A DNA stretch of 64,000 bases, from the NCBI GenBank assembly GCA_963170075.1, contig CAUJFW010000239.1:11741-75740 (forward strand), in the 5' to 3' direction. Below are positions 50,992 to 63,123 of the stretch, piece after piece; the stretch's first letter is position 1, and each line of letters begins with the position of its first letter. The notes beneath the pieces were generated by a model. That model was not told the origin of the DNA, made no database searches, and saw nothing but the letters and a program-made list of their open reading frames with translations. The DNA is from Gemmatimonadota bacterium. Lineage in GTDB: Bacteria > Gemmatimonadota > Gemmatimonadetes > Gemmatimonadales > Gemmatimonadaceae. The translations under genes and the position numbers were made by a program.

Positions 50992-52287
50992 TTATCGGAT
51001 ACTGGCGCGCTCCAGCAGCGACGACTTGCCATCGGTGTTGAGGAGATACACCACGCCACCGGGACCAAAACCGGCAAGCACGCGGCCCTTCGGGAACGAC
51101 ACCCGTTCGATGATTTCTCCCTTGCGATTCACCACATCGTACAGCAAGCCCGTGGTGCCAGCGCCGACGGCCGTGCGCGGTACGATCCACAGATTGTTGT
51201 CGAGGTCCGCCCGCACCGAACCCGGTGAGATAGGTGGCTCGTAGTCCGGGATCTTGTTGAGCGGCACGAAGTCGAATTCGATGGAAATGCGGCGCGGACC
51301 GTTCGGCGTGGGAATGGTGGGCAGCGACGCGCCCTGCGCCTTGAGTTGCTTCTCCATCTCGGGGCGCAGTGAGTCGATCTTGAACTGTTTCTGTTCGTCG
51401 CTGAGACGCTTCCAGTCAAACGGCATCTTTGGCGTAGATCGTTTGGTGCCGTCGGGATCGAGCCAGTCGAGGTGATAGTCGTGCGCGCGCACCACCGCGA
51501 TTGTGCCGTCGGTGAGGATCGCCCATTCGTCGCCCGTATCGAGCGGGTTGATCGTCACCTTGAGCGCGAAGTTCCCGTCCTTGCCCGTTGACATCGACAT
51601 GTTGCCGGGCTTGAGCGCCTTCATCGTCATCAGTGTGTCCACGTTGCGCGTGTCAAAATCGGCACGCACAATTGGCGCGGAATCCGGTTGCTCGGGAAGC
51701 CGGAATGCGCCGAACGGTGTTTGCGGCGCATTCGGATCGGGCGGCTTTGGCGGGTTGATGATCACGCCGCGATACACCAGGCGACCCTTGTTGTCGGCCA
51801 TGGGCACCCCGTACACCGACCCCATCGCGAGGAAGATCGCATCGCGTGGCCTGGGGAGTGCCATGACATGCCCCACCTTGCCATTCGGATCGAGTACCAG
51901 CAGCGACATCGACGAGACATCGACATACAGCGATGAATCGGCGAGATACGGAATCAACTGCGCCGATTGGATGGCCATCGGCATCGCCGCATTGGCGCCG
52001 CTGCTGCCAGAGTCCATCACGACGGTAGCGCTCTTGAGCGATGCGTCAAACAGCAGCACGCGCTGACGCGCCACGTCGTTCACCAGCACTTTGCCCGACG
52101 ACAACGGACGAACTGCGACGCGTGCGCCGAGTGAATCGGTGGAGACCGCGGTCACCGCACCGAGCGAGCGGGTGGGAATCTTGGCTTGGGCGACGCTTGG
52201 CGTGGTACCCGTCGACTGCGCCGACGCTTGCACCGTAGCGCTCGCCAATCCAAGCGCGAGCACGGTGAATATCCTTCGACCCTGCAT
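50992..52287 (-). CDS. Secreted hypothetical protein, probable beta-propeller (paralog of 52580-53965)
   Basis: Signal peptide; shares VNDxxRxR, YLxDSSLxVD, PDSAPIxRADFDTR and GELxYDVVN-like blocks with its neighbour. Confidence 0.7.
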   Translation of the reverse strand: MQGRRIFTVLALGLASATVQASAQSTGTTPSVAQAKIPTRSLGAVTAVSTDSLGARVAVRPLSSGKVLVNDVARQRVLLFDASLKSATVVMDSGSSGANAAMPMAIQSAQLIPYLADSSLYVDVSSMSLLVLDPNGKVGHVMALPRPRDAIFLAMGSVYGVPMADNKGRLVYRGVIINPPKPPDPNAPQTPFGAFRLPEQPDSAPIVRADFDTRNVDTLMTMKALKPGNMSMSTGKDGNFALKVTINPLDTGDEWAILTDGTIAVVRAHDYHLDWLDPDGTKRSTPKMPFDWKRLSDEQKQFKIDSLRPEMEKQLKAQGASLPTIPTPNGPRRISIEFDFVPLNKIPDYEPPISPGSVRADLDNNLWIVPRTAVGAGTTGLLYDVVNRKGEIIERVSFPKGRVLAGFGPGGVVYLLNTDGKSSLLERASIR

Positions 52288-52387
52288 GATGAACGGCTCC
52301 GGTACGCGTGAGAAGCGCGCACTCGGTGAGGCAGCGCGCTGCTGCAATATACGGGAGCGAGGGGGGCGGGGGTTCAGGACGGCACGA

Positions 52388-52553
52388 CAGCTGTCAGTGG
52401 TCAGTCATCGGACAATTGCTGAGTCCTGGGTCTTCAGTCCGAGTCACCAGTCGCCAGTTGGTTCTGAGTACTCAGTTGTGCAACCGACAACTGACAACTC
52501 CGACTGAAAACCGACAGCTTAGCCGTTGTCCGATCACTGACCACCGACAACTG
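52388..52553. repeat. About 166-bp imperfect palindrome built of heptamer-like repeats
   Basis: 28-bp outer arms (3 mismatches), central perfect CTGAGTACTCAG at 52464-52475, inner arms also complementary. Confidence 0.85.
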
Positions 52554-52579
52554 CGCAGTTGAAGACTCGTTGCCCTCGT

Positions 52580-53965
52580 CTATTGCGTCGCCCGCCCGCC
52601 GCCGAGCACACTCGAACGCTCAAGCACAAACCCCTTGGTGCGGTCGCCACTCATCAGGTATACGACTCCGCCTTTGCCAAAACCGGCGATCGACCGTCCA
52701 CTCGGTATGCGCACCCGCTGGAACAGCTCGCCGGATTTGTTCACCACGTCGTACACCAACTCGCCACCCTGCGACTGTGCCGACGTCGTTGGCAAGATCC
52801 AGAGATTCCCATCGAGATCGGGACGCGCAGCGCCCGGTCGGATGGCCGGGTAGTAGTCGGCGATTTCTTTGAGCGGCACAAAGTCGATTTTGGGAGCGCC
52901 GATGTTCATAGGTTGGCCCATTGGTGGGCCACCGCCTGCGTCGCCACCCACCGTCGCAGCGCCACCGCCCAGGGAGCCACCGGCCATCACCATCACGCGC
53001 ACTTCTGTGGCGCCACCGGCCGCGCCACCGCCGGGAGGACCTCCAAAGCTGACGGTGCCCGGCGCGCTGCCGTTCGCCGCTGCTGCTTTCTGCGCGTTCT
53101 CGTTGGCGGTGCGCGCCGAGTCGACCAGCGCCTGCTTGTCCTCATCCGTCAGTCGCTTCCAGTCGAACGGCAGCTTTGCGCCCTTGGTGGCCTCACCTTT
53201 GGGATTCACGACATCGACGTGGTAGTCTTGACCGCGCACCATCGCCAACGTGCCGTCCGTCAGTACCGACCAATCGTCGACGGTCACCAGCGGGTTGATC
53301 GTCATCTTGAGCGACATCTTCCCGTCCGCACCCTGCTCCATGGTCGCCCGCGTTCCACTGGCGATCTTCACGCGACCAACCGTGTCGACCATGCGCGTAT
53401 CAAAATCCGCACGGAGAATTGGAGCCGAGTCAGGCGGCTGAACCGGCGCGGGTCGCTCGCCCGGATTGAGCGAACGAGTCTGTGTGACCATCTGAATACC
53501 GCGATACAGCAACCGTCCCTTGTCATCCACATACGCGGGGCTGTTGCCCAGAAAGCGCAGATCACCCGGTTTGGGCGCAGACATGACACGCGAGACCGCG
53601 CCCTTCGGGTCGATCACCAGCAACGACGATGACGCCGCATCGACAAAGAGCGACGAGTCGCCGAGATACGCGATCAGCGGCGCAGGGCGCGGTCCATAGC
53701 TGTTGGCGGCGCCCGCCGTCGAGTCGATCACCACCGAGGCCTTCTGCATCGTGGGGTCGAGCATCACCAGGCGACGACGACCGGCATCGTTGACCAGCAG
53801 TGATCCGTTCGGCAACTGCCGAACGCCCAGAATGGCGCCGAAGGTATCGAGACTAGTGGCCGCCGACGGGGCGAGCGCCATGACGGGGACTTTCGGCTGC
53901 GCAAGCGCGGTCGTGGCGCTCAGCGCCAGCACGGCACCCGACAGGATGGGGACAGTTTGCCGCAT
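52580..53965 (-). CDS. Secreted hypothetical protein, probable beta-propeller with Gly/Ala-rich insert
   Basis: AGGA RBS before ATG 53965, signal peptide, extensive similarity to 50992-52287. Confidence 0.7.
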   Translation of the reverse strand: MRQTVPILSGAVLALSATTALAQPKVPVMALAPSAATSLDTFGAILGVRQLPNGSLLVNDAGRRRLVMLDPTMQKASVVIDSTAGAANSYGPRPAPLIAYLGDSSLFVDAASSSLLVIDPKGAVSRVMSAPKPGDLRFLGNSPAYVDDKGRLLYRGIQMVTQTRSLNPGERPAPVQPPDSAPILRADFDTRMVDTVGRVKIASGTRATMEQGADGKMSLKMTINPLVTVDDWSVLTDGTLAMVRGQDYHVDVVNPKGEATKGAKLPFDWKRLTDEDKQALVDSARTANENAQKAAAANGSAPGTVSFGGPPGGGAAGGATEVRVMVMAGGSLGGGAATVGGDAGGGPPMGQPMNIGAPKIDFVPLKEIADYYPAIRPGAARPDLDGNLWILPTTSAQSQGGELVYDVVNKSGELFQRVRIPSGRSIAGFGKGGVVYLMSGDRTKGFVLERSSVLGGGRATQ

Positions 53966-54077
53966 CGGAATCCTCGGTAACGTCAACATGAATGGGAACC
54001 AGACTGCATGGAGAGCACCACGCCCCGTAGGTCACGGGGGGTGATGGAAGGGTTGCCTGCCGCCCTGCCGGCCGTGG

Positions 54078-57000
54078 CTACCGGAACATGAACGGGCTGA
54101 TGTCACCGGCGCTCGACGACTTGAGGAACTTGAGGACGCGCGTGTCGAGGAAGTTGGTGATCTGCGACGGCAGTTTCCGGCGCTGGGAAGCCGTCAGCAG
54201 CTTCTTCACATCGGGTACGATGCGGATCAGGTACTCCACCGTGACTTCACGCGCGTGCACGTAGCGGTCGTAGGCCTCGTCCCGGCTGTAGTGATCCGGC
54301 ACGGTCTCGAGATACTTGGACACCGGCGTCCACACCGAGTCGGCATACTGCGTGAACTTGCGGCTCAACGACGCCAGGCTGTCGGCCTGCTTGCGATTGA
54401 GTTTGAGCGAGTCCTGCTGCGTGAGGATCAACGCCATCGGATTGGGAATCGAGCTCGAGCCCAAGGCCTTGAGATTTGGCGCCGTTTGTTTGGTGCCGGG
54501 GCGACCGCGGCCCATGTCCAGGCGTTGCGTAAGGACCTGCCGCTCGCGCGGAGCACCGACATCGAGGCTGAAGGACAAACTCGCGTAGGCCGGTGTCCGG
54601 CTCACCGACTGCTGCGGGCGTGTCGAGCCAAATCGCTGATTCACTTCGTACTTGTAGCGTGAGGTGCTGGCGTCGAATCCACGCACGAACAACAGGCTCT
54701 GATCGGGAGCAATTTCCTGCCCCCATCCCTTGGCGTTCTTGGTGCCGTTCACCAACAGGTCGGCGATGCCCAATGGGTTGGTGAACGCCAGGTTGATCGT
54801 CAGCCGCTTGGGAAGTCCCAGCTTCTGTGGATTGAAGTTGACGTTGAGATTCGTCGTCGAGACCCACGGCGCCTGACAGCTGCCGCGCCCGGCCAGCGCA
54901 TTGAGCTGCGCCGCCAGACACTTCCGCGCCGCCGGCGCGCCGTTGTCGAGCAGTTCCTGCATGCTGGCACGGACGGTCGGATCGGTGAGCGTCGCGGGGT
55001 CGAACACAAACGCACGATCATTGAGAAACGCGCCGTCACCGTTGATGTCGCCGGCCACGAGCGGCGTGAAGCGCTGACCCGACTTCACGCCCACGGCCAC
55101 GTTGAAGTACATGAGATCCCAGAGCGGCAAGCTGCTCCAGATGAGCTGGAACTGATGGCGGCCACTCGCCAGGTGCGGTCCCCACTCCTTGGCAAACGGA
55201 TCGCCCACCGTGCTGCTGAAGCCGTTGAACTGATCCCGAACATCCAGCAGTGAATACGTCAGCTGCCACTTGAGATACTTGTTGGCCGTCACCGGCACGA
55301 GCTTGAACACGAAGTTCGTGGAGGTCGAACGGAGGTCGGACGTTTGCAGCGACAATCGCTGATACTTGTCGCTGCGGCGTGTCGCCACCGACGCCACGTT
55401 GCCAGTTGTCGGGACAATCGCCGTGGCCGGCGCGTACACGGGTCGACCGCCCTCGTTGTCGATCGTGAAACGTGTGGTCGGATCAAAGTTCAGATCAACC
55501 GATCCCGTCTGGTTGAGATTGAGCGAGTAGACACCCTGCGCGCCAAGGACAAAACGATTGTCCAGAATCGGACTCGACCAGTCCACGGCGCTGCGCACCG
55601 ACTTGGGCTGCCGATAGTTGCGATCGAACGCCACCACACTCGGCGCGCCCGTCGAGAACACCGTGCCCGACGTACCGTCGGCGCACGTGGTCGGCAACGT
55701 CCCAAGGTCGCGGTTATAGCTGTCCCAGTCGGGAATCGGCGCGCCACTGCCCACGCACGCGAGTGAACGTGTTGAATTGGGGAGACCAGTGTTGACCACC
55801 GAACTGTTGATCAGCGTCGCGGGCCCGACGTTCTGGAAAATCCCGATGCCGGCATGAATCACCGCGAGCGGCGGACGCGCTGCACCGGGCGCGAAGGCTA
55901 CCTGCGGCGAGTTGCCATACGTCCACTGCATGCCGACGCGCGGACTGAAGTACACGGCGTTCGGCACGTAGTCGTTGTCGACGCCGAACAGCGAGCGGAT
56001 CTCCGGATTGTTCTGCGGCCGATAGAGAAAGCGATTCGCATCGGCCCGCACGCCGTATTGCACTTGCAACCGTGCCGTCGGACGCCATGCGTCACCCAGT
56101 GAGATGCCGCCGGAGAGCTGATCCGTGGCGCCAGTGATACCATTGAGCGTTCGCGTATAACTCGCCGGACGTCCGGCTTCGAGATCGGCCAGTGAGTTGA
56201 ACGAATACGAGCCCAGCAGATTCGAGTTCGCCTCGTTCGTATTGTGCTCGCGTGACAGATTCGACGTCAGCTTGATGGCGTGTTTGTTGTTGCCGCTGTA
56301 CCAGGAAAGCGTATTGCTCAACTGCAGCGCTTGCGTGAGTTGTGAAAACGGCGTCTGGCTGCCACCAAAGGACAACGAGCGGATCGACGAGCTGCCGTCC
56401 TCCAGGGTGGAGTTCACCCGCACGGTGCCCGACGGATACTGCAGAAACGGCGTGCTCTCCACGCGCTGCGCCGAGACGCCGAGATTGGTCTGCGAGAGAA
56501 TGCCGAACCAGAAGTAGTTCGAATGCCGGAGCGATGCGCTGCCCAGCATGATCTCGTTGTTGTTCGTACGCGATGGCACTGTGGTGAGCAGACTGCCGCT
56601 GCCAAAGCCGCCCAGCGTCGGGCGCGTCTTGCTGTAGAAGCCGTTGGTGCCGAGCGTGAACGAATGACCCGCGCCCGACGAACTCGGAGTCAGGTCGATG
56701 TTCGTTTGCAGGCTGAGCTGGTCCGTGGCATTGAGCGAGGGTGTCTTCGCGACTGACACCGGGACTTTCTGCTGGCCCAGGATGTCGAGCAGACGTGTCA
56801 CCGAATCGCTGGCCACGCCGGCTGCCGCCAGACCGACCGGGCTGGCATTGAGCAGCGTCAGGGCGTCGGCAAACCGACGCTGGTACGAATACGCCGCGTT
56901 GTAGAACGCCTTGTCCATGGCGATCGGACCGCGCGCCCCGCCGCCGTAGCGCAGCGTCGTCGATTTCTGTCCGGACGAATCGGCTTCGGCGTCGGTCCAC

Positions 57001-57788
57001 TGCAACTCGGGCGCGGTGCCGTACGCACTTTGGTTGCGGAAGGAAAAATTCGAACCGGGAATGGACTGGATCGACACCTGCGCACCGCTGAAGCCACCGC
57101 GCGACACATCCCACGGAAACTGATTGAACGAAAGCCGCACCTGCGCATCGGGCGGCAGCGTGTTCAAACCGGAGCCCAGTCCGTTGAAGTTCGTGTTGTT
57201 CTGGTCGCCGGAGAGACCGAGTGCCGAGAACATGTCCGACGCACCATCCATACCTGGAATGAGCTGAATGCCCGGAATGCTCGCGGCCATCGCGGAAAGA
57301 TTGCCAGCCTGATCGGGCGGCACGGCGGCTCCAGTGGTCAATGCGCGCTCGCCACCACCGACGTCCGTGTTGCCGGCGTTTCGATTGGGCAGGGCACGCG
57401 CGCCGTTGGCCGTGACATTGACCTGATCGAGCGTGGCGATGGACGACGCCATGCGCGTGTCGGCCAGCATCACTTCTTCTTCGCCAACCTTCTTGATCTC
57501 GAAGCGCTTGGGGACATAGCCCAGCGCCGCAAACTCCAGCCAGTAGTCACCTTCGCCGTTGACGAAGATGATGGTGAAGCGACCGTTGCGATCCGTGCGC
57601 GCCGACTTGGTGACACTTCCACTGTACGAAGTCGCCTTCACCTGGACGTTCTGGATCGGCTGACTGTCAGGGCCGGTCACCCGACCGCGAATGATGTCCG
57701 AGCCAGACTGGGCGAGGGTCGGACTCGACCAGCAGACCAGCGCGATGAGAAAGGTCCACCACAACGGCAGAATACGACGAGGCGTCAC
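54078..57788 (-). CDS. Oar-like TonB-dependent receptor with N-terminal carboxypeptidase-regulatory domain and C-terminal extension
   Basis: Signal peptide, IRGRVTG...TDRNGRF domain, plug-like segment (DVSRGGFSG), FSPRVG and YRQPK barrel motifs, GDINGDG motif. Confidence 0.82.
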   Translation of the reverse strand: MTPRRILPLWWTFLIALVCWSSPTLAQSGSDIIRGRVTGPDSQPIQNVQVKATSYSGSVTKSARTDRNGRFTIIFVNGEGDYWLEFAALGYVPKRFEIKKVGEEEVMLADTRMASSIATLDQVNVTANGARALPNRNAGNTDVGGGERALTTGAAVPPDQAGNLSAMAASIPGIQLIPGMDGASDMFSALGLSGDQNNTNFNGLGSGLNTLPPDAQVRLSFNQFPWDVSRGGFSGAQVSIQSIPGSNFSFRNQSAYGTAPELQWTDAEADSSGQKSTTLRYGGGARGPIAMDKAFYNAAYSYQRRFADALTLLNASPVGLAAAGVASDSVTRLLDILGQQKVPVSVAKTPSLNATDQLSLQTNIDLTPSSSGAGHSFTLGTNGFYSKTRPTLGGFGSGSLLTTVPSRTNNNEIMLGSASLRHSNYFWFGILSQTNLGVSAQRVESTPFLQYPSGTVRVNSTLEDGSSSIRSLSFGGSQTPFSQLTQALQLSNTLSWYSGNNKHAIKLTSNLSREHNTNEANSNLLGSYSFNSLADLEAGRPASYTRTLNGITGATDQLSGGISLGDAWRPTARLQVQYGVRADANRFLYRPQNNPEIRSLFGVDNDYVPNAVYFSPRVGMQWTYGNSPQVAFAPGAARPPLAVIHAGIGIFQNVGPATLINSSVVNTGLPNSTRSLACVGSGAPIPDWDSYNRDLGTLPTTCADGTSGTVFSTGAPSVVAFDRNYRQPKSVRSAVDWSSPILDNRFVLGAQGVYSLNLNQTGSVDLNFDPTTRFTIDNEGGRPVYAPATAIVPTTGNVASVATRRSDKYQRLSLQTSDLRSTSTNFVFKLVPVTANKYLKWQLTYSLLDVRDQFNGFSSTVGDPFAKEWGPHLASGRHQFQLIWSSLPLWDLMYFNVAVGVKSGQRFTPLVAGDINGDGAFLNDRAFVFDPATLTDPTVRASMQELLDNGAPAARKCLAAQLNALAGRGSCQAPWVSTTNLNVNFNPQKLGLPKRLTINLAFTNPLGIADLLVNGTKNAKGWGQEIAPDQSLLFVRGFDASTSRYKYEVNQRFGSTRPQQSVSRTPAYASLSFSLDVGAPRERQVLTQRLDMGRGRPGTKQTAPNLKALGSSSIPNPMALILTQQDSLKLNRKQADSLASLSRKFTQYADSVWTPVSKYLETVPDHYSRDEAYDRYVHAREVTVEYLIRIVPDVKKLLTASQRRKLPSQITNFLDTRVLKFLKSSSAGDISPFMFR

Positions 57789-57989
57789 AACGGCTCCAAG
57801 AGGCGATGGGTCATGCTGGCTGCGTGGAGGTTAGTACGTGACGGGGGCCACAATGGTTGCTTTCTGCCTCACACGTGGCGAATTGACTCGTGCCACCCTT
57901 GTGGAGACGCCGCCCGGGTGGAGAAGATCACGGGCATCACCGTCCCGCTTTTCCACGTCCCGCCCCTTTCCACTCCCACTCCCCCCGCC

Positions 57990-58580
57990 GTGACCGACCT
58001 CTGGATGGAGCCCTCGCCCGACCTCTGGCAGCAGGCGCTTGCTCGCTACGAGCGGGTCATCGAGCGCCAGGATGTGGCCAAACTTCCCGCGCTCGATCGC
58101 TGGTATCGCGATGAGCTTCCGGGCGCGATCGCGTCGCGCGCGACGCCACACGTCACTCACGACGAATTGGTCCGGTTGACCGAGTGGAAGATGGCGCGTG
58201 GTGTGTGGCGGGCGCCCAATTTGGTTCTGGTGCGCGGCAACGCGCCCGAGTTGGTGCGCGAGGTGAGTGCGTCGGCACTTGCGCTGATTCCCCATCCCAC
58301 CAAACCCGTCGCCACGCTGGCGACGCTGGCCGGTATTGGTCCCGCCACCGCGTCAGCCGTGACGGCTGCGCACAAACCCGGCCTGTATCCGTTCTTCGAC
58401 GAACTGGTGGCCGCGCAAATCCCGACACTCGGCAAGGTGGCGTGGACGCTGGGTTACTATGGCAAATACGCGGCGGCGCTACGCGAGCGTGCCGCTGAAC
58501 TGGGTGCGGAATGGACCCCGGTCATGCTGGAGCGCGCGCTGTGGGCGCATGTCGGCGGGAAGACCGGCGCGGTGGACTGA
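57990..58580 (+). CDS. HhH-motif protein resembling the Amun-like putative DNA glycosylase family
   Basis: LDRWYRDELP, ELVRLTEWKMARG, LAGIGPATASAV (HhH) and ERALW. Start 57990 or 58005. Confidence 0.7.
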   Translation: MTDLWMEPSPDLWQQALARYERVIERQDVAKLPALDRWYRDELPGAIASRATPHVTHDELVRLTEWKMARGVWRAPNLVLVRGNAPELVREVSASALALIPHPTKPVATLATLAGIGPATASAVTAAHKPGLYPFFDELVAAQIPTLGKVAWTLGYYGKYAAALRERAAELGAEWTPVMLERALWAHVGGKTGAVD

Positions 58581-58610
58581 GTCCACCGCCCCGTAATGGC
58601 CAGGTTCACA

Positions 58611-59003
58611 TCACACCGATTGCTCACCCCGCGGCGGACCGCCCTCCAGCAGCATGGCCTGGTACTCGTCGTCGCTGAAAAGACGGGAGCGCGTGAGAAA
58701 ACGCATGCCCTCGGGTGTTTCGAGTGAGAATCCGCCGCCGCGGCCCGGCACGACGTCGATCGTGAGATGCGTGTGCTGCCAGTATTCGAATTGCTGCGCG
58801 CCGATGTAGAACGGCACATCGGCGATCGTACCCAGATACACATCCCGCGCACCGATGCGGAATTCGGCGCGCGGGTAACACATCGGGGAGCTGCCATCGC
58901 AGCAGCCCCCCGACTGATGAAATACCAACGCGCCATGCCGCGCCTGCAGCGTGCGCAGCAGTGCCGCCGCGTCGGGCGTGACGTCCACGCGTGCAATCGG
59001 CAT
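58611..59003 (-). CDS. DUF779 domain protein
   Basis: FHQSGGCCDGSSPMCYP and GRGGGFSLE motifs; usual neighbour of ethanol/acetaldehyde ALDH. Confidence 0.93.
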   Translation of the reverse strand: MPIARVDVTPDAAALLRTLQARHGALVFHQSGGCCDGSSPMCYPRAEFRIGARDVYLGTIADVPFYIGAQQFEYWQHTHLTIDVVPGRGGGFSLETPEGMRFLTRSRLFSDDEYQAMLLEGGPPRGEQSV

Positions 59004-59046
59004 TGTTACCGCCGTCCCGAAGTGGTGCTCGACATGCGGCTCGTGC

Positions 59047-60603
59047 TCAGAAGAAGCCGAGCGCGTTCGGGCTGTAGCTGACCAGCAGATTCTTGGTCTG
59101 CTGATAGTGACTCAGCATCATCTTGTGATTTTCACGACCGATGCCACTCTGCTTGTAGCCACCAAACGCCGCGTGCGCCGGATAGAGGTGATAGCAGTTG
59201 GTCCAGACGCGGCCGGCCTGAATACCACGCCCCATGCGATAGCAGGTGTTGGCGTCGCGTGACCAGACACCGGCGCCAAGCCCGTAGAGCGTATCGTTGG
59301 CGAGTTGCAACGCATGATCGGCGTCTTTGAACTTCGTCACCGACACCACCGGCCCGAAGATCTCTTCCTGGAAGATGCGCATCTTGTTGTGCCCCTCGAA
59401 GATCGTCGGCTGGACATAGTATCCGCCGGCCAACTCCCCTTCATGCACGGCACGTCCGCCGCCGGTACGCACGGTGGCGCCTTCCTGACGACCGATATCG
59501 AGATAGCTCAGGATCTTCTCCAACTGATCGTTCGACGCCTGGGCGCCCATCATCGTCGAAGGATCGAGCGGATGACCAAGCTTGATCTTCTTCACCCGCT
59601 CGGTCGCCCGTTCCATGAACGCATCGTAGATCGATTCCTGCACCAGCGCGCGCGAAGGACACGTGCACACCTCGCCTTGGTTGAGCGCGAACAGCGTGAA
59701 CCCTTCGAGCGCCTTGTCGAAAAACGCGTCGTCAGCCTCCATGACATCGGCGAAAAACACGTTCGGCGATTTGCCGCCCAGCTCGAGCGTCACGGGCAGC
59801 AGATTCTCCGACGCGTACTGCATGATGAGGCGGCCCGTGGTGGTCTCACCCGTAAACGCCACCTTTGCGACACGCGGGCTCGAGGCAAGCGGTTTGCCGG
59901 CTTCGACACCAAACCCCTGCACCACATTCACGACACCCGGCGGCAGCAGATCGGCGATGAGTTCCATGAACGCCATGATCGAGACCGGCGTCTGTTCGGC
60001 GGGCTTGAGCACCACACAATTTCCAGCAGCAAGCGCGGGCGCGAGCTTCCACACCGCCATCAGCAGCGGGAAGTTCCAGGGAATGATCTGGGCGACCACG
60101 CCGAGCGGTTCGTAGAAGTGATAGGCCACCGTATCGGCATCGAGCTCACCGGCTGATCCTTCCTGCGCGCGCAACACGCCGGCGAAGTAGCGAAAGTGAT
60201 CGATGGCCAGCGGCAGATCCGCGTTGATCGTTTCGCGAATCGCCTTGCCATTGTCGATCGTTTCGATCACGGCGATCGATTCGAGATTCTCTTCCAGCCG
60301 GTCGGCAATCTTGTTCAGCATGATGGCGCGCGCGGTCGCCGTCGTTTTGCCCCACGCCGGCGCCGCGGCATGCGCGGCATCGAGCGCCAACTCCACATCT
60401 TCGTGCGTCGACCGTGCGACATCGCACAGATGCTGTCCCGTGACCGGCGTGGGATTGGAGAAGTACTGGCCACGGACGGGAGCGCGGAATTGCCCGCCGA
60501 TGAAGTTCTCGTAGCGGGACTTGATCGGAATGCCGATGGCGTACGAGCGGGCGGCTTCGGGAAGTGTGGCGCGGGCGGGAGTCGGCTCGATGGTCGCGGA
60601 CAT
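59047..60603 (-). CDS. NAD-dependent aldehyde dehydrogenase (AldB/ExaC type)
   Basis: [33 protein letters not shown] and EEIFGP motifs; GGAGG RBS. Confidence 0.96.
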
Positions 60604-60687
60604 GCGCGGTCCTCCTGAGGAGGTGAGAGGTGGGAGAGGACGCGTGTCGGAGATCACCATCGCCGTCACGCCGTCGCTGCGTGAGGA

Positions 60688-60703
60688 AGCAAGGTCCGGG
60701 CCT
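60688..60703 (-). promoter_or_regulatory. Sigma-54 (-24/-12) promoter of the ALDH-DUF779 operon
   Basis: Minus strand AGGCCCGGACCTTGCT, i.e. GG-N10-GC with a perfect TTGCT, about 85 bp upstream of the ALDH ATG. Confidence 0.7.
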
Positions 60704-60799
60704 TTTCGCACGCGCTCGTCCACCGGGTGCTAAGCCGCGACCACACAATCAGTTGCCGTGCGCCGAGGGTCGCCTATCGGTGGCTGCGGCCCAGGGTAC

Positions 60800-60849
60800 G
60801 CGACAGTCTGTCGCGCGACGATCTGTCGCATCGGGCGACACTCTGTCGC
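60800..60849. promoter_or_regulatory. Cluster of TGTCGC/GCGACA palindromes, candidate activator-binding sites
   Basis: GCGACAG-T-CTGTCGC (60800-60814), TGTCGC-N5-GCGACA (60824-60840), GCGACA-N3-TGTCGC (60835-60849). Confidence 0.65.
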
Positions 60850-61011
60850 GTCTGTCAGAAAAAGCACGCTTGCGTGCGCTACCGCGATGCGTCATGCTCT
60901 GAGTCCCACCCGCGTCGCCGCGCGCGACCATTTGCCACTCGACCGCCGTTTGACGTGTGCCGCGTTCCCCGCGCGAGACGCACTCCGCTTGCAGGCGCCA
61001 CGCCTCGAGGC

Positions 61012-63123
61012 ATGACACCGGACATGGAATCGATTCCGTACGATCGGTCGGCGCAGCGCACGGTGACGCGTGCATGGGATGCGCTGGTGGAAGGACGCAT
61101 GGCGCTCGCGCAATCGCGGCCACTGGTGCGCGACTCGTGGCAACGGTCGCTGCAGGCTGCGGTTCCTGCGGATCTTCCCAAGGCACCGCTGGTGCTGAGC
61201 GATGCCTCGCTGCGCATCGCGCAGGAGCGCGCCGATTGGGTGCCACTCGCGTTGCGCGCCGCGCAGAACCTGAGCGAGGCGTTCACCTGCGGCCACATCC
61301 TCAGTCTCTTCGATGCCGAAGGTCGCATGCTCTCATGCGATGGCGATCCCGCCGTGCTCGAGGGACTCGCCGCCATCAACTTCCGGCCGGGCGGACTTTG
61401 GTCCGAAGCGGCCGTGGGGACCAATGGACCCGGGACCGCACTGGCCACTGGCCGGCCAGTGCACATCGTTGGCGCCGAACACTACTGCGAAGCCTGGCAT
61501 GGATGGCACTGCGCGGCGGTGCCGGTCATCGACACGGTCACCAGCGCCGCACTCGGCGTGATTGATATCTCGGGCTTCAGTCGCAACGCACATCCGCACA
61601 CGTTGCAACTCGCGGTCGCCCTCGCCTCATCGGTGCGTGAGATGCTCACGGCGCGCGACATGGCGCATCGTGTGGCCGTGCTGACCCGGTTCGCACAGCT
61701 CAGCAGTCGCTACGCGCAGGACGCGCTCGTCGCGGTCGACCGCCACGGCCACGTCCTGCATGCCACCGACGCGGCGCCCGCCGGGTTGCGGCCCGGCACG
61801 GAGATGCCGCGGGCGCTGCGGAATGCGATCGCCGAGCATATCGAGTCGCTGCGCATTCACGGGCATGTCGGGGAGTCCACCGAGGTGTTCCTGGCTCTCG
61901 ATCACGATATCGGCGTCTCGGCCATGAGTTTCCCGGTCTTCGATCCGGACCACGTGGTCGGGACCTGTCTGTTGCTCCGCAGCGGTGCCGCCCTGCGCGA
62001 CGCATCGTCGTCGGCACGCATCGGATCCATGCGCCAGCAGTCGCCCGCGGACAGCGCACGTAGTACCCCACGCGATACACGAGCCAATCGCTACACCGAT
62101 GAACGCGGCGATGCGCGCAACGAGGTACGTAACGATGCACGTACCGATGATCGTGGTGATCGCCGCTACGCACTCCGCGACATCGTGGGCTCGTCGTCTC
62201 GCATGACCGAGGCAGTGCGACTCGCCAGCGCGGCGGCGGGCAATGCGTTGCCGGTGTTCATCTCCGGCGAATCGGGGACGGGCAAAGAAGTGTTTGCGCA
62301 GGCCATTCATGCCGCAAGCGCGCGCCGCAGCCGGCCATTTATTGCCGTCAACTGCGCGGCGCTCCCACGCGAGTTGATCGAGGCGGAACTGTTCGGGTAC
62401 GTCGGTGGCGCGTTCACGGGCGCGCGACGCGAAGGCAGCCCGGGCAAATTTCGCGCGGCCGACGGGGGCACGATCTTTCTCGACGAGATCAGCGAGATGC
62501 CGTACAGTGCGCAGGCCGCGTTGCTGCGCGTGCTGCAGGAACAGGAGATCTCGGCCGTGGGCAGCAGCGAGGTGCGTCCCATCAACGTGCGCGTCATCGC
62601 CGCGACGAATCGCGATGCGGTCGAAGCCGTTCGCACCGGGCAGTTGCGCCCCGATCTCTACTATCGGCTCAATGTGCTGACCATCGAGCTCCCCTCGCTC
62701 CGCGAACGGCGTACGGACATTCCGGCGCTCGCGGCTCATCTGCTGACACAGGCGGCCCGGGAACTCGGTCGCCCGTCGTTGTACTTTGCCGAGGGAGTGA
62801 CCGAGCAACTCGCGCAGTGGGACTGGCCAGGCAACGTGCGCGAACTCAAGAACTACGTGCGCCGCATCGCATCGTTGACAGCGGGGGACCTGGTGACACT
62901 GGAGACGGACGCGCCGCGGCCAGCGATGCACGACGCGTGGACGTCGGATGCGATCGACGCGCGCCCCGCCGACGACACCGAACGCACGCGCACGGTGGCC
63001 GCCATGCAGTCCGCCCGTTCGATGCAGGACGCCGCACACAAACTCGGGATCAATCGGAGTACGCTGTATCGACGTCTCGAGCGCTACGGACTCAAGGCCG
63101 AGCGCCTGCTGCGCACGCAGTAG
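61012..63123 (+). CDS. Sigma-54-dependent Fis-family activator with GAF domain (AcoR-like)
   Basis: [15 protein letters not shown] motif, [27 protein letters not shown] and the C-terminal [13 protein letters not shown]. Confidence 0.94.

What the first reader, a model, noticed from the sequence alone, without database searches (positions are those of the whole stretch)
57990..58580. Bacterial member of the mostly eukaryotic Amun-like HhH protein family
Seen: LWQQALARY...LDRWYRDELP...THDELVRLTEWKMARGVWR...LATLAGIGPATASAV...PFFDE...WTLGYY...AAELG..W....ERALW, about 190 aa, with an HhH GIGP motif but no Fe-S cluster motif. From memory (needs verification), this matches end to end the plant, fungal and animal family containing Drosophila Amun (LDxWY/FYxxxLP, ELxxLMxWKLxRG, LxGVGPATASA, ERALW), annotated as a putative DNA glycosylase with no demonstrated substrate. 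A compact bacterial homolog would be a tractable model and informs the origin of the family (bacterial ancestor versus eukaryote-to-bacterium transfer).
Basis: partly seen in the sequence, partly recalled or inferred. Interest (0 to 1): 0.75.

Follow-up and report, generated by a model that had tools for sequence, protein, structure and literature searches.

The report
Bacterial Amun-family HhH protein, probable glycosylase
This is a real 196-residue gene of a sewage-sludge Gemmatimonadota bacterium whose product is a full-length relative of the uncharacterised animal, plant and fungal "Amun" proteins, but the family has a large bacterial branch of its own, so the gene is an ordinary conserved bacterial gene of unknown substrate, not a rare import from eukaryotes.

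Summary
Observation confirmed. Window 57990..58580 (+) is a real gene of 196 aa starting at GTG 57990, and it carries every quoted motif and no cysteine.

Tick "protein amun" matches at E 1e-22 in a 1.8-billion-protein library. A eukaryotic profile aligns to residues 3-185 of 191 with hhalign probability 100 and E 1.3e-40.

Three parts of the interpretation fail:
- The family is not a eukaryotic family with a stray bacterial member. The gene was found in 144 GTDB species genomes; the 80 listed are nearly all labelled Gemmatimonadota. A further branch includes Chloroflexota MAGs and brushes Pfam DUF6308.
- In an NJ tree, bacteria and eukaryotes separate at 99-100% bootstrap and Gemmatimonadota form a 95% clan. 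This excludes transfer from within a sampled eukaryotic lineage.
- The ALDH neighbour belongs to a convergent DUF779-ALDH unit, and no neighbour is conserved across 80 loci.

Two AlphaFold models (pLDDT 95 and 92) find almost only HhH-GPD DNA glycosylases in the PDB, Ogg-type best. The matches are weak (E 0.1-1.7, TM below 0.5), and Pfam HhH-GPD is not matched.

Most likely function: a stand-alone monofunctional DNA glycosylase of unknown substrate. This is inferred, not shown. Verdict: a new member of a known but uncharacterised kind, of moderate interest.

The parts
57990..58580 (+). Gene for the Amun-family HhH protein: 196 aa from GTG 57990, stop codon at 58578-58580. The ATG at 58005 gives the 191-aa form used in the tool calls.
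   Evidence: ORF and translation. N-terminal alignment supports the GTG start. Homologues. Identical metatranscriptome contig 57994-58851.
57789..57989 (.). 201-bp divergent intergenic region between the start of the 1236-aa outer-membrane protein gene (- strand, start at 57788) and this gene. It presumably holds both promoters. No sigma-70-like site and no Shine-Dalgarno sequence were recognisable.
58092..58106 (+). LDRWY motif. D31 is invariant in 53 of 53 family members and W33 in 49 of 53 (191-aa numbering).
   Evidence: Alignment A4 and the column census.
58185..58211 (+). WKMARGVWR motif. W61, K62, R65, G66 and R69 are invariant in bacteria and eukaryotes. It is the family's signature, at the end of helix 4 and in the following loop. 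I infer a DNA-contact or pocket element.
   Evidence: secondary structure.
58302..58373 (+). Helix-hairpin-helix: helix 100-105, hairpin with G110-I-G112, helix 113-123. GPATASA is nearly invariant. A114 sits where bifunctional glycosylases have their Lys (EndoIII K120).
   Evidence: Pfam HHH below cutoff, E 0.007. hhalign to EndoIII (2abk) aligns G112 with G118 and A114 with K120. DSSP. Census.
58398..58403 (+). D132-E133, the candidate catalytic acidic pair at the N-cap of the helix after the HhH. D132 lies 20 residues after G112, as D138 does after G118 in EndoIII. D132 is present in 33 of 33 bacterial members but is A or S in 20 of 20 eukaryotic ones. Position 133 is acidic in all 53.
58542..58544 (+). 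W180 of the ALW motif, invariant in 53 of 53 members.

Best explanation
Shown: 57990..58580 (+) is a stand-alone gene of a Gemmatimonadota bacterium found in activated sludge and biofilm. It is probably transcribed. It encodes a 196-aa, all-alpha, cysteine-free protein that is a full-length homologue of eukaryotic Amun / zgc:112496. It belongs to the bacterial branch of that family. In that branch the gene was found in 144 GTDB species genomes, nearly all of the 80 listed labelled Gemmatimonadota. The branch also includes Chloroflexota and other uncultured bacteria, and it sits just below the Pfam threshold for DUF6308. Inferred: the protein is a divergent member of the HhH-GPD DNA-glycosylase fold and works as a monofunctional base-excision enzyme. 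The helix-hairpin-helix (G110-I-G112) would grip the phosphate backbone of the damaged strand. The target base would be flipped into a pocket between the two helical lobes, lined by the invariant aromatic and charged residues (W33, W61, K62, R65, R69, W180, D31). The acidic pair D132/E133 at the N-cap of the next helix would activate water or stabilise the oxocarbenium ion. There is no Lys at the Schiff-base position (A114 is invariant), so no AP-lyase step is expected. There is no Fe-S cluster. The substrate is unknown. Because the gene has no conserved partners, I expect a housekeeping lesion (alkylated, oxidised or deaminated base), not a system-specific modified base.
For: Family membership: (E 1e-22, 4e-28 and 1.3e-40; coverage 3-185 of 191). 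All family motifs are invariant in 53 diverse members. Bacterial branch: 144 GTDB species genomes, the 80 listed nearly all Gemmatimonadota; a branch with Chloroflexota and DUF6308-flagged members; a 99-100% bootstrap split between eukaryotes and bacteria and a 95% Gemmatimonadota clan. Fold: the AF2 model has pLDDT 95.3 and pTM 0.91. All top 50 Foldseek PDB hits are HhH-GPD glycosylases: mOGG1, SsOgg 3fhg (probability 0.94, TM 0.47/0.44), MjOgg, CacOgg, MutY, AlkA, EndoIII and AGOG. An independent model of the fish orthologue (pLDDT 92.2) gives almost the same list. Weak Pfam hits go to 'OGG-like' PF21790 and DUF6308. Catalytic geometry: the HhH register against EndoIII puts D132 on D138 and A114 on K120. 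The weak MutY match (E 0.7) gives the same register. D132 is in 33 of 33 bacterial members and position 133 is acidic in 53 of 53. Stand-alone status: no conserved neighbour. Transcription.
Against: The fold matches are weak: E 0.1-1.7, TM below 0.5, rmsd 9-10 A. Pfam HhH-GPD PF00730 is never matched. Profile searches of PDB sequences find only HhH-motif-level hits such as ribosomal protein S13. The canonical Asp position is A or S in all 20 eukaryotic members, with the acidic pair shifted by one residue, so its catalytic role is not secured. The best-conserved residues (K, R, W) would equally suit a non-catalytic DNA binder. The only functional data in the family are Drosophila genetics that describe a nuclear regulator of bristle development (as cited; the primary paper is not held). 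I could not inspect model coordinates, so the pocket is not verified.
Confidence: 0.5

Rival explanations
1. It is a non-catalytic HhH DNA-binding protein, architectural or regulatory, that has kept the glycosylase-like scaffold but not the chemistry.
For: Global fold similarity to glycosylases is weak. PF00730 is not matched. The invariant residues are mostly Lys, Arg and Trp. The canonical Asp column differs between bacteria and eukaryotes. Drosophila Amun is described as a nuclear transcriptional regulator.
Against: An acidic residue at position 133 and D31 are invariant from bacteria to vertebrates. That is hard to explain for pure backbone binding. D132 is fixed in all 33 bacterial members at exactly the EndoIII/MutY spacing. 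The protein is one compact domain with no effector or oligomerisation module, and it has no conserved regulated neighbour.
Confidence: 0.25
2. It is an enzyme with the HhH-GPD-like scaffold that acts on something other than a damaged DNA base. Candidates are an enzymatically modified base, an RNA or nucleotide substrate, or a DNA-protein or DNA-adduct linkage.
For: No known glycosylase family is matched at sequence level. The invariant signature WK[ML]xRGx[WF]R has no counterpart that I could align to known HhH-GPD enzymes. The family is conserved in organisms that already possess the standard glycosylases (general knowledge).
Against: There are no conserved partner genes such as modification enzymes or defence genes. 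PADLOC gives no hit, and only a weak PHROG match of unknown function appears, in two other bacterial relatives. There is no significant viral structural neighbour.
Confidence: 0.15
3. The gene was acquired by this bacterium, or by Gemmatimonadota, from a eukaryote by horizontal transfer.
For: The family is very diverse in eukaryotes, and 33-45% identity to animal proteins is unusual for a bacterial hypothetical protein.
Against: Eukaryotes and bacteria separate at 99-100% bootstrap, and Gemmatimonadota form a 95% clan among other bacterial lineages that are 42-57% identical to it. The gene is conserved at 63-80% identity across two classes of the phylum. Its GC content and codon-position GC pattern match its surroundings. 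An ancient transfer at the root of the bacterial clan cannot be excluded, because the tree is unrooted.
Confidence: 0.03
4. It is an ordinary Ogg, AlkA, Nth or MutY-type glycosylase that merely looks like Amun in the HhH motif.
For: The nearest PDB folds are Ogg-type enzymes.
Against: No Pfam, NCBIfam or PDB-sequence match to those families appears even at E 10. The similarity to Amun-family proteins covers the whole length, not just the HhH.
Confidence: 0.02

Closest known systems
Amun (Drosophila CG2446) / zebrafish zgc:112496 family of eukaryotic nuclear HhH proteins. From memory, not checked here, this is PANTHER PTHR21521.
   Same: Full-length collinear homology: 33-45% identity and hhalign probability 100 over residues 3-185. 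All signature motifs are shared: LDxWY, WK[LM]xRGx[FW]R, G[VI]GPATASA, the F..D/E acidic pair and ALW. The helix order is the same in both AF2 models.
   Different: The bacterial proteins are the bare domain (about 195 aa), without the Lys/Arg-rich or long disordered C-terminal tails of the eukaryotic ones. Bacteria have F-F-D-E-L where eukaryotes have F-M-[AS]-D-E. Bacteria have WKM and V67 where eukaryotes have WKL, K67 and P70. The two groups are separate clans at 99-100% bootstrap.
Pfam DUF6308 (PF19827), a bacterial family of unknown function
   Same: It is the only Pfam family with repeated hits. 27 of 53 family members match at E<=0.01 (best 3.9e-8). Part of the Chloroflexota-containing branch is pre-annotated PF19827, and NCBI names one member 'DUF6308 family protein'.
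   Different: The window protein scores 16.9 bits against a cutoff of 27.3, and only residues 104-160 (the HhH plus the acidic-pair segment) align. This is a superfamily-level relative, not a member.
HhH-GPD DNA glycosylase superfamily, closest to the Ogg-type enzymes: archaeal Ogg2 (SsOgg 3fhg, MjOgg 3knt), CacOgg and OGG1
   Same: An all-alpha fold with an HhH followed by an acidic residue 20-21 residues after the hairpin Gly, at a helix N-cap. The size is like Ogg2 (207 aa). These are the only consistent structural neighbours for two independent models.
   Different: TM is below 0.5 and E is at best 0.1. There is no sequence-profile match to PF00730. There is no Lys nucleophile in the HhH, whereas Ogg1, Ogg2 and Nth have one. 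There is no Fe-S cluster, whereas Nth and MutY have one. The N-terminal lobe carries a signature (WKxxRGxWR, LDxWY) that I could not match to these enzymes.
Pfam PF21790 'putative 8-oxoguanine DNA glycosylase OGG-like protein'
   Same: Weak matches over the C-terminal half: the window protein at E 0.028 and the Creolimax homologue at E 1.5e-4.
   Different: All scores are below the cutoff of 27 bits, and only 2 of 53 members match at E<=0.01.

Membership tests
Amun / zgc:112496 family | Significant sequence similarity over the whole conserved domain to proteins that sources name Amun | tested here: met
   phmmer E 9.8e-23 to the tick 'protein amun' cluster, query residues 4-183. BLASTP 4e-28. 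hhalign of the eukaryotic profile against the window protein: probability 100, E 1.3e-40, 183 columns. Drosophila melanogaster Amun itself was not retrieved. The name rests on NCBI's naming of arthropod orthologues.
Amun / zgc:112496 family | Signature motifs LDxWY, WK[LM]xRGx[FW]R, GxGPATASA, the acidic pair after F130, and ALW | tested here: met
   D31, W61, K62, R65, G66, R69, G112, A114, T115, A116 and W180 are invariant in 53 sequences (33 bacterial, 20 eukaryotic), and position 133 is acidic in all.
Amun / zgc:112496 family | Nuclear localisation and C-terminal basic or disordered extension, with a role in Notch-related development | tested here: not met
   The bacterial protein ends 11 residues after ALW and has no basic tail. 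The developmental role does not apply to a bacterium. These are features of the eukaryotic branch, not of the domain.
HhH-GPD DNA glycosylase superfamily | Match to the HhH-GPD sequence profile (Pfam PF00730) | tested here: not met
   No PF00730 hit at E<=10 for the window protein, nor among the listed hits (E<=0.01 to 1) for 53 family members.
HhH-GPD DNA glycosylase superfamily | HhH motif followed about 20 residues later by a catalytic Asp at a helix N-terminus | tested here: met
   G110-I-G112 hairpin. D132 lies 20 residues after G112, and helix 133-136 starts right after it. The hhalign register to EndoIII 2abk puts G112 on G118, hence D132 on D138. Only the position was tested, not the catalytic role.
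HhH-GPD DNA glycosylase superfamily | Two-lobed all-alpha fold superposable on solved members | tested here: inconclusive
   All top 50 Foldseek PDB hits for the window model, and 46 of the top 50 for the fish model, are HhH-GPD glycosylases. However E is 0.1-1.7, probability at most 0.94, TM at most 0.47 and rmsd 9-10 A.
HhH-GPD DNA glycosylase superfamily | N-glycosidic bond cleavage on DNA | not testable with these tools
   This needs biochemistry. The only literature I found on any family member mentions a glycosylase domain without an assay, and searches for DUF6308 and zgc 112496 found no paper.
Bifunctional glycosylase/AP lyases (Nth, Ogg1, Ogg2) | Lys nucleophile two residues after the second hairpin Gly | tested here: not met
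   A114 is invariant at that position in 53 of 53 members.
Fe-S HhH glycosylases (Nth, MutY) | C-terminal 4-Cys cluster loop | tested here: not met
   The protein has zero cysteines.
Pfam DUF6308 (PF19827) | Score at or above the gathering cutoff of 27.3 bits | tested here: not met
   16.9 bits, E 0.006, residues 104-160 only. Some relatives in the Chloroflexota-containing branch carry a PF19827 hit in the precomputed annotation.

The most novel reading that the evidence does not exclude
The Amun family, with bacterial and eukaryotic branches, is a previously unrecognised family of HhH-GPD-like enzymes with its own N-terminal signature (LDxWY, WKxxRGxWR) and a substrate not handled by the known families. 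It would be conserved from Gemmatimonadota and Chloroflexota to vertebrates and plants. The Drosophila developmental phenotype would then come from base excision, for example on a modified or epigenetic base, and not from classical transcription-factor activity. The 196-aa bacterial protein would be the minimal enzyme for working this out.
Probability: 0.3. Interest if true: 0.75.

Novelty: new member of a known kind. Interest (0 to 1): 0.45.

Why it matters
Amun has been called a 'putative DNA glycosylase' since 2009, yet I found no assay, no structure and no Pfam model for it. This work shows three things:
- The domain is ancient and widespread in bacteria.
- It exists there as a bare, cysteine-free 196-aa protein that AlphaFold models with very high confidence.
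- At least one cultured isolate carries it (Roseisolibacter sp. H3M3-2).

That makes the biochemical question directly testable in a simple system. It also supplies a specific mutational target list: D31, K62, R65, R69, D132, E133 and W180. For genome annotation, it ties many 'hypothetical proteins' in Gemmatimonadota, and relatives in Chloroflexota, to a named eukaryotic family and to DUF6308.

It does not reveal a new kind of system. The evolutionary point, eukaryote versus bacterial origin, is only narrowed. Recent transfer from eukaryotes is excluded, but the root is unknown.

Tried and rejected
- **Start at ATG 58005.** Rejected in favour of GTG 57990, because homologue N-termini align to the five extra residues. 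The 254-aa database call P0001 is an over-extension into the divergent promoter region.
- **Link to ALDH or aldehyde stress.** Rejected. ALDH is on the opposite strand with DUF779, next to a sigma-54/GAF activator. Across 80 related loci no neighbour cluster recurs next to the gene more than 5 times, and the ALDH cluster recurs only once. My first two neighbourhood scripts failed because the high-GC ORF calling was too crude, and I replaced them.
- **Sequence searches for a solved relative.** phmmer and a family profile against PDB sequences gave nothing, or only HhH-motif hits such as ribosomal protein S13 and ComEA, plus MutY at E 0.7.
- **NCBIfam, PADLOC, PHROGs.** No meaningful hit.
- **Viral structure library.** Nothing significant, so I found no evidence for a viral vector between the domains of life.
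- **First NJ tree.** The tree of 93 representatives gave only 34% support for the eukaryote/bacteria split, because it contained fragmentary or chimeric representatives. Repeating it with 53 clean full-length sequences gave 99-100%.
- **Literature.** The Amun primary paper (PMC2728848) is not held. No paper mentions DUF6308 or zgc 112496. Papers citing Amun add no biochemistry.
- **Other window features.** No tRNA or Rfam family anywhere in the window. No promoter-like site upstream of the gene, and no convincing terminator.

Full report
**1. What is at the coordinates**

Two starts are possible. GTG 57990 gives MTDLWMEPSPDLWQQAL. This aligns without gaps to the N-termini of homologues, whose consensus is LW-x7-W-xx-AL. 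ATG 58005 would remove the conserved LW.

All tool calls used the 191-aa ATG form. Residue numbers below follow that form, so add 5 for the GTG form.

The protein has no cysteine, and GC at the three codon positions is 0.72, 0.52 and 0.78. The sequence occurs in activated-sludge, wastewater and biofilm metagenomes. An identical 858-nt contig (57994-58851, depth about 5) is present in one biofilm metatranscriptome. This is weak evidence for transcription, because DNA carry-over cannot be excluded.

**2. Context**

- Upstream, divergent: a 1236-aa CarboxypepD_reg plus outer-membrane beta-barrel protein (54078-57788, - strand).
- Downstream, convergent: DUF779 (58611-59003, -) and an aldehyde dehydrogenase (59047-60723, -), followed by a divergent sigma-54 activator with a GAF domain (60727-63123, +).

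The ALDH thus belongs to a different transcription unit on the other strand. I fetched 80 related loci from GTDB species genomes, called genes by codon-position GC and clustered them. No neighbour family recurs next to the gene more than 5 times, and the ALDH cluster recurs once.

Three more distant bacterial homologues also sit among unrelated genes. The gene is stand-alone, and the aldehyde link is not supported.

**3. Relatives**

- No Pfam or NCBIfam model reaches its cutoff. The weak Pfam hits are DUF6308 PF19827 (16.9 bits, cutoff 27.3), the HHH motif and 'OGG-like' PF21790.
- No PDB chain is found by sequence.
- The 5.8-billion-protein search gives 2467 hits. The best 120 are all 69-99% identical, about 195 aa long and 'hypothetical'; those that carry an organism name are Gemmatimonadota, such as Gemmatirosa and Roseisolibacter sp. 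H3M3-2.
- The GTDB scan found the gene in 144 species genomes. The 80 listed are 63-80% identical and almost all Gemmatimonadaceae, Longimicrobiaceae or other Gemmatimonadota. A few contigs carry other labels (Kuenenia, Burkholderiales, Steroidobacteraceae, Chthonomonadales). At this identity they are probably mis-binned.
- The exhaustive HMMER search of 1.84 billion representatives gives 1107 clusters at E<=1e-3 and 400 at E<=1e-10.

P0182 (E 9.8e-23, query residues 4-183) is the tick protein that NCBI names 'protein amun' or 'uncharacterized protein Amun'. Others come from Amoebidium, Creolimax, a characiform fish, an ostracod, reindeer and the plant Rhodiola.

A search with a profile of ten sequences from the eukaryote side returned mainly fish 'zgc:112496'. 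It also returned tuatara, Bombina, Polypterus and the fungus Dissophora, and one UniRef entry is named 'HhH-GPD domain-containing protein'. BLASTP of the window protein against tick Amun gives 4e-28. hhalign of the eukaryotic profile against the window protein gives probability 100, E 1.3e-40, over 183 columns covering residues 3-185 of 191. The homology is real and end-to-end.

**4. The bacterial side is large**

A profile of six intermediate metagenomic homologues (42-48% identical in the core alignment) returned 1054 proteins. Among them are MAGs labelled Chloroflexia, Anaerolineae and Chloroflexota. Many carry a precomputed PF19827 hit, and one is named 'DUF6308 family protein'. Of 53 diverse family members, 27 hit DUF6308 at E<=0.01 (best 3.9e-8) and none hits PF00730. 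Of ten eukaryote-side members, two hit DUF6308.

**5. Phylogeny**

A first NJ tree of 93 representatives placed every named eukaryote in one clade and the bacterial sequences outside it. Strict support was only 34%, because the set held fragmentary representatives.

With 53 clean full-length sequences (179 core columns, Kimura distances, 300 bootstraps):

| Grouping | Bootstrap |
|---|---|
| Eukaryotes versus bacteria | 99-100% |
| Gemmatimonadota clan | 95% |

. The window protein is 42-57% identical to other bacterial lineages and 36% on average (45% at most) to eukaryotic ones.

This excludes transfer from within a sampled eukaryotic lineage. The tree is unrooted, so the ultimate direction of transfer remains open. 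In the 93-sequence set, 73 fall on the eukaryote side, so eukaryotes may hold more of the sequence diversity. Most of those labels are inferred from tree position and basic C-terminal tails.

**6. Structure**

AlphaFold2 with a 31-sequence alignment gives mean pLDDT 95.3 and pTM 0.91. The model has eleven helices and no strands.

Foldseek against the PDB returns no hit at E<=0.001. However, all 50 top hits are HhH-GPD DNA glycosylases: mouse and human OGG1, Sulfolobus Ogg (3fhg, probability 0.94, TM 0.47/0.44), Methanocaldococcus Ogg, Clostridium Ogg, MutY, AlkA, EndoIII and AGOG.

An independent model of the fish orthologue (pLDDT 92.2) gives almost the same list, at E 0.13-1.7. The viral structure library gives nothing significant. 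The nearest known fold is therefore the Ogg-type HhH-GPD glycosylase, but the relationship is distant (TM below 0.5, rmsd 9-10 A).

**7. Active-site reading**

The HhH is helix 100-105, hairpin G110-I-G112, helix 113-123. I confirmed that my recalled E. coli EndoIII sequence equals PDB 2abk. hhalign against it aligns only the HhH, with G112 on G118 and A114 on K120. Extending that register puts D132 on the catalytic D138. The weak MutY match (E 0.7) gives the same register. D132 is followed directly by helix 133-136, so it sits at the N-cap as in known enzymes.

Column census over 33 bacterial and 20 eukaryotic sequences:

| Position (191-aa numbering) | Bacteria | Eukaryotes |
|---|---|---|
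| D31, W61, K62, R65, G66, R69, G112, A114, T115, A116, W180 | invariant | invariant |
| 132 | D in 33/33 | A or S in 20/20 |
| 133 | E or D in 33/33 | D or E in 20/20 |
| 134 | mostly L | E in 20/20 |

The acidic pair is thus shifted by one residue between the branches (FFDEL versus FM[AS]DE). By the spacings I recall for known enzymes, about 20 residues in EndoIII and MutY and 21-22 in hOGG1 and AlkA (only the EndoIII sequence was verified here), either position fits.

There is no Lys at the Schiff-base position and there are no Cys ligands. If this is a glycosylase, it is monofunctional and free of Fe-S. I could not inspect coordinates, so the proposed pocket (W33, W61, W180, D31, D132/E133) is inference.

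**8. Mechanism and rivals**

| Explanation | Confidence |
|---|---|
| Stand-alone monofunctional base-excision enzyme of unknown substrate | about 0.5 |
| Non-catalytic HhH DNA binder | 0.25 |
| Enzyme on a non-classical substrate | 0.15 |
| Eukaryote-to-bacterium transfer | 0.03 |
| Ordinary Ogg, AlkA or Nth | 0.02 |

The last one is already refuted.

**9. What is known, and novelty**

The held literature offers only the statement that Drosophila Amun is a nuclear regulator with a glycosylase domain, acting in Notch-related bristle development (citing Shalaby et al. 2009). The primary paper is not held. No paper mentions DUF6308 or zgc 112496.

The window gene is thus a new bacterial member, already deposited as 'hypothetical protein', of a known but biochemically uncharacterised family. 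It is not a new kind of system. Its value is practical: a minimal, confidently modelled orthologue, also present in at least one cultured isolate, with a defined list of residues to mutate.

Noticed in passing
window 58611-63123: DUF779 (58611-59003, -) and an aldehyde dehydrogenase (59047-60723, -) lie next to a divergent sigma-54 activator with a GAF domain (60727-63123, +). This looks like an acetaldehyde or alcohol oxidation module under an AcoR-like regulator. Metatranscriptome contig depth is locally much higher over the ALDH (up to 157) than over the HhH gene (about 5), though short conserved pieces may cross-map.
   Followed up: partly
window 50995-57788 (- strand): A 1236-aa CarboxypepD_reg plus outer-membrane beta-barrel protein (54078-57788) is followed on the same strand by two paralogous ORFs of about 470-480 aa (52583-54031 and 50995-52404). 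These have no Pfam hit at E<=1e-4. The trio recurs next to the HhH gene only in a few close relatives (L004, L006, L019, L025). It may be an uncharacterised outer-membrane uptake unit.
   Followed up: partly
L006, L027, L077, L079: Contigs from MAGs labelled Candidatus Kuenenia stuttgartiensis, Burkholderiales, Steroidobacteraceae and Chthonomonadales carry orthologues 64-75% identical to the Gemmatimonadota protein. This is most likely mis-binning of Gemmatimonadota contigs and not lateral transfer.
   Followed up: no
protein P0155 (Rangifer tarandus, 43-Mb chromosome record): A reindeer 'unnamed protein product' is the eukaryotic member most similar to the bacterial query (45-48% identity). 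It has FMSEE in place of the usual FM[AS]DE. So mammals, at least ruminants, carry the family, and this copy is unusually bacterial-like. I did not check whether it is a genuine mammalian gene with introns or contamination.
   Followed up: no
protein P0211 (ostracod Notodromas monacha, 515 aa): It contains a partial internal duplication of the Amun domain: the segment ELPRIMKKRKPDMFFTHDELVQAIKWKLARGKFRPKLKELVQMNTPR occurs twice. This could be a tandem exon duplication or an assembly or annotation artefact.
   Followed up: no
L081 980-2278 and L083 1291-2589: In the low-GC, DUF6308-flagged bacterial clade (relatives of P0143), a 432-aa MerR plus B12-binding protein (CarH-like, a possible light-responsive regulator) and an NAD-dependent epimerase lie 2-3 genes from the HhH gene in two different contigs. 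This could hint at light- or UV-related regulation, or it could simply be local synteny between close relatives.
   Followed up: no
window 57813-58580; protein P0001: The database copy of this gene (99% identical, 254 aa) was called from an upstream start near 57813. That adds about 58 non-conserved residues which run across the divergent promoter region. This is an annotation over-extension.
   Followed up: yes
window 1-64000: No tRNA gene and no Rfam family reaches threshold anywhere in the 64-kb window.
   Followed up: yes
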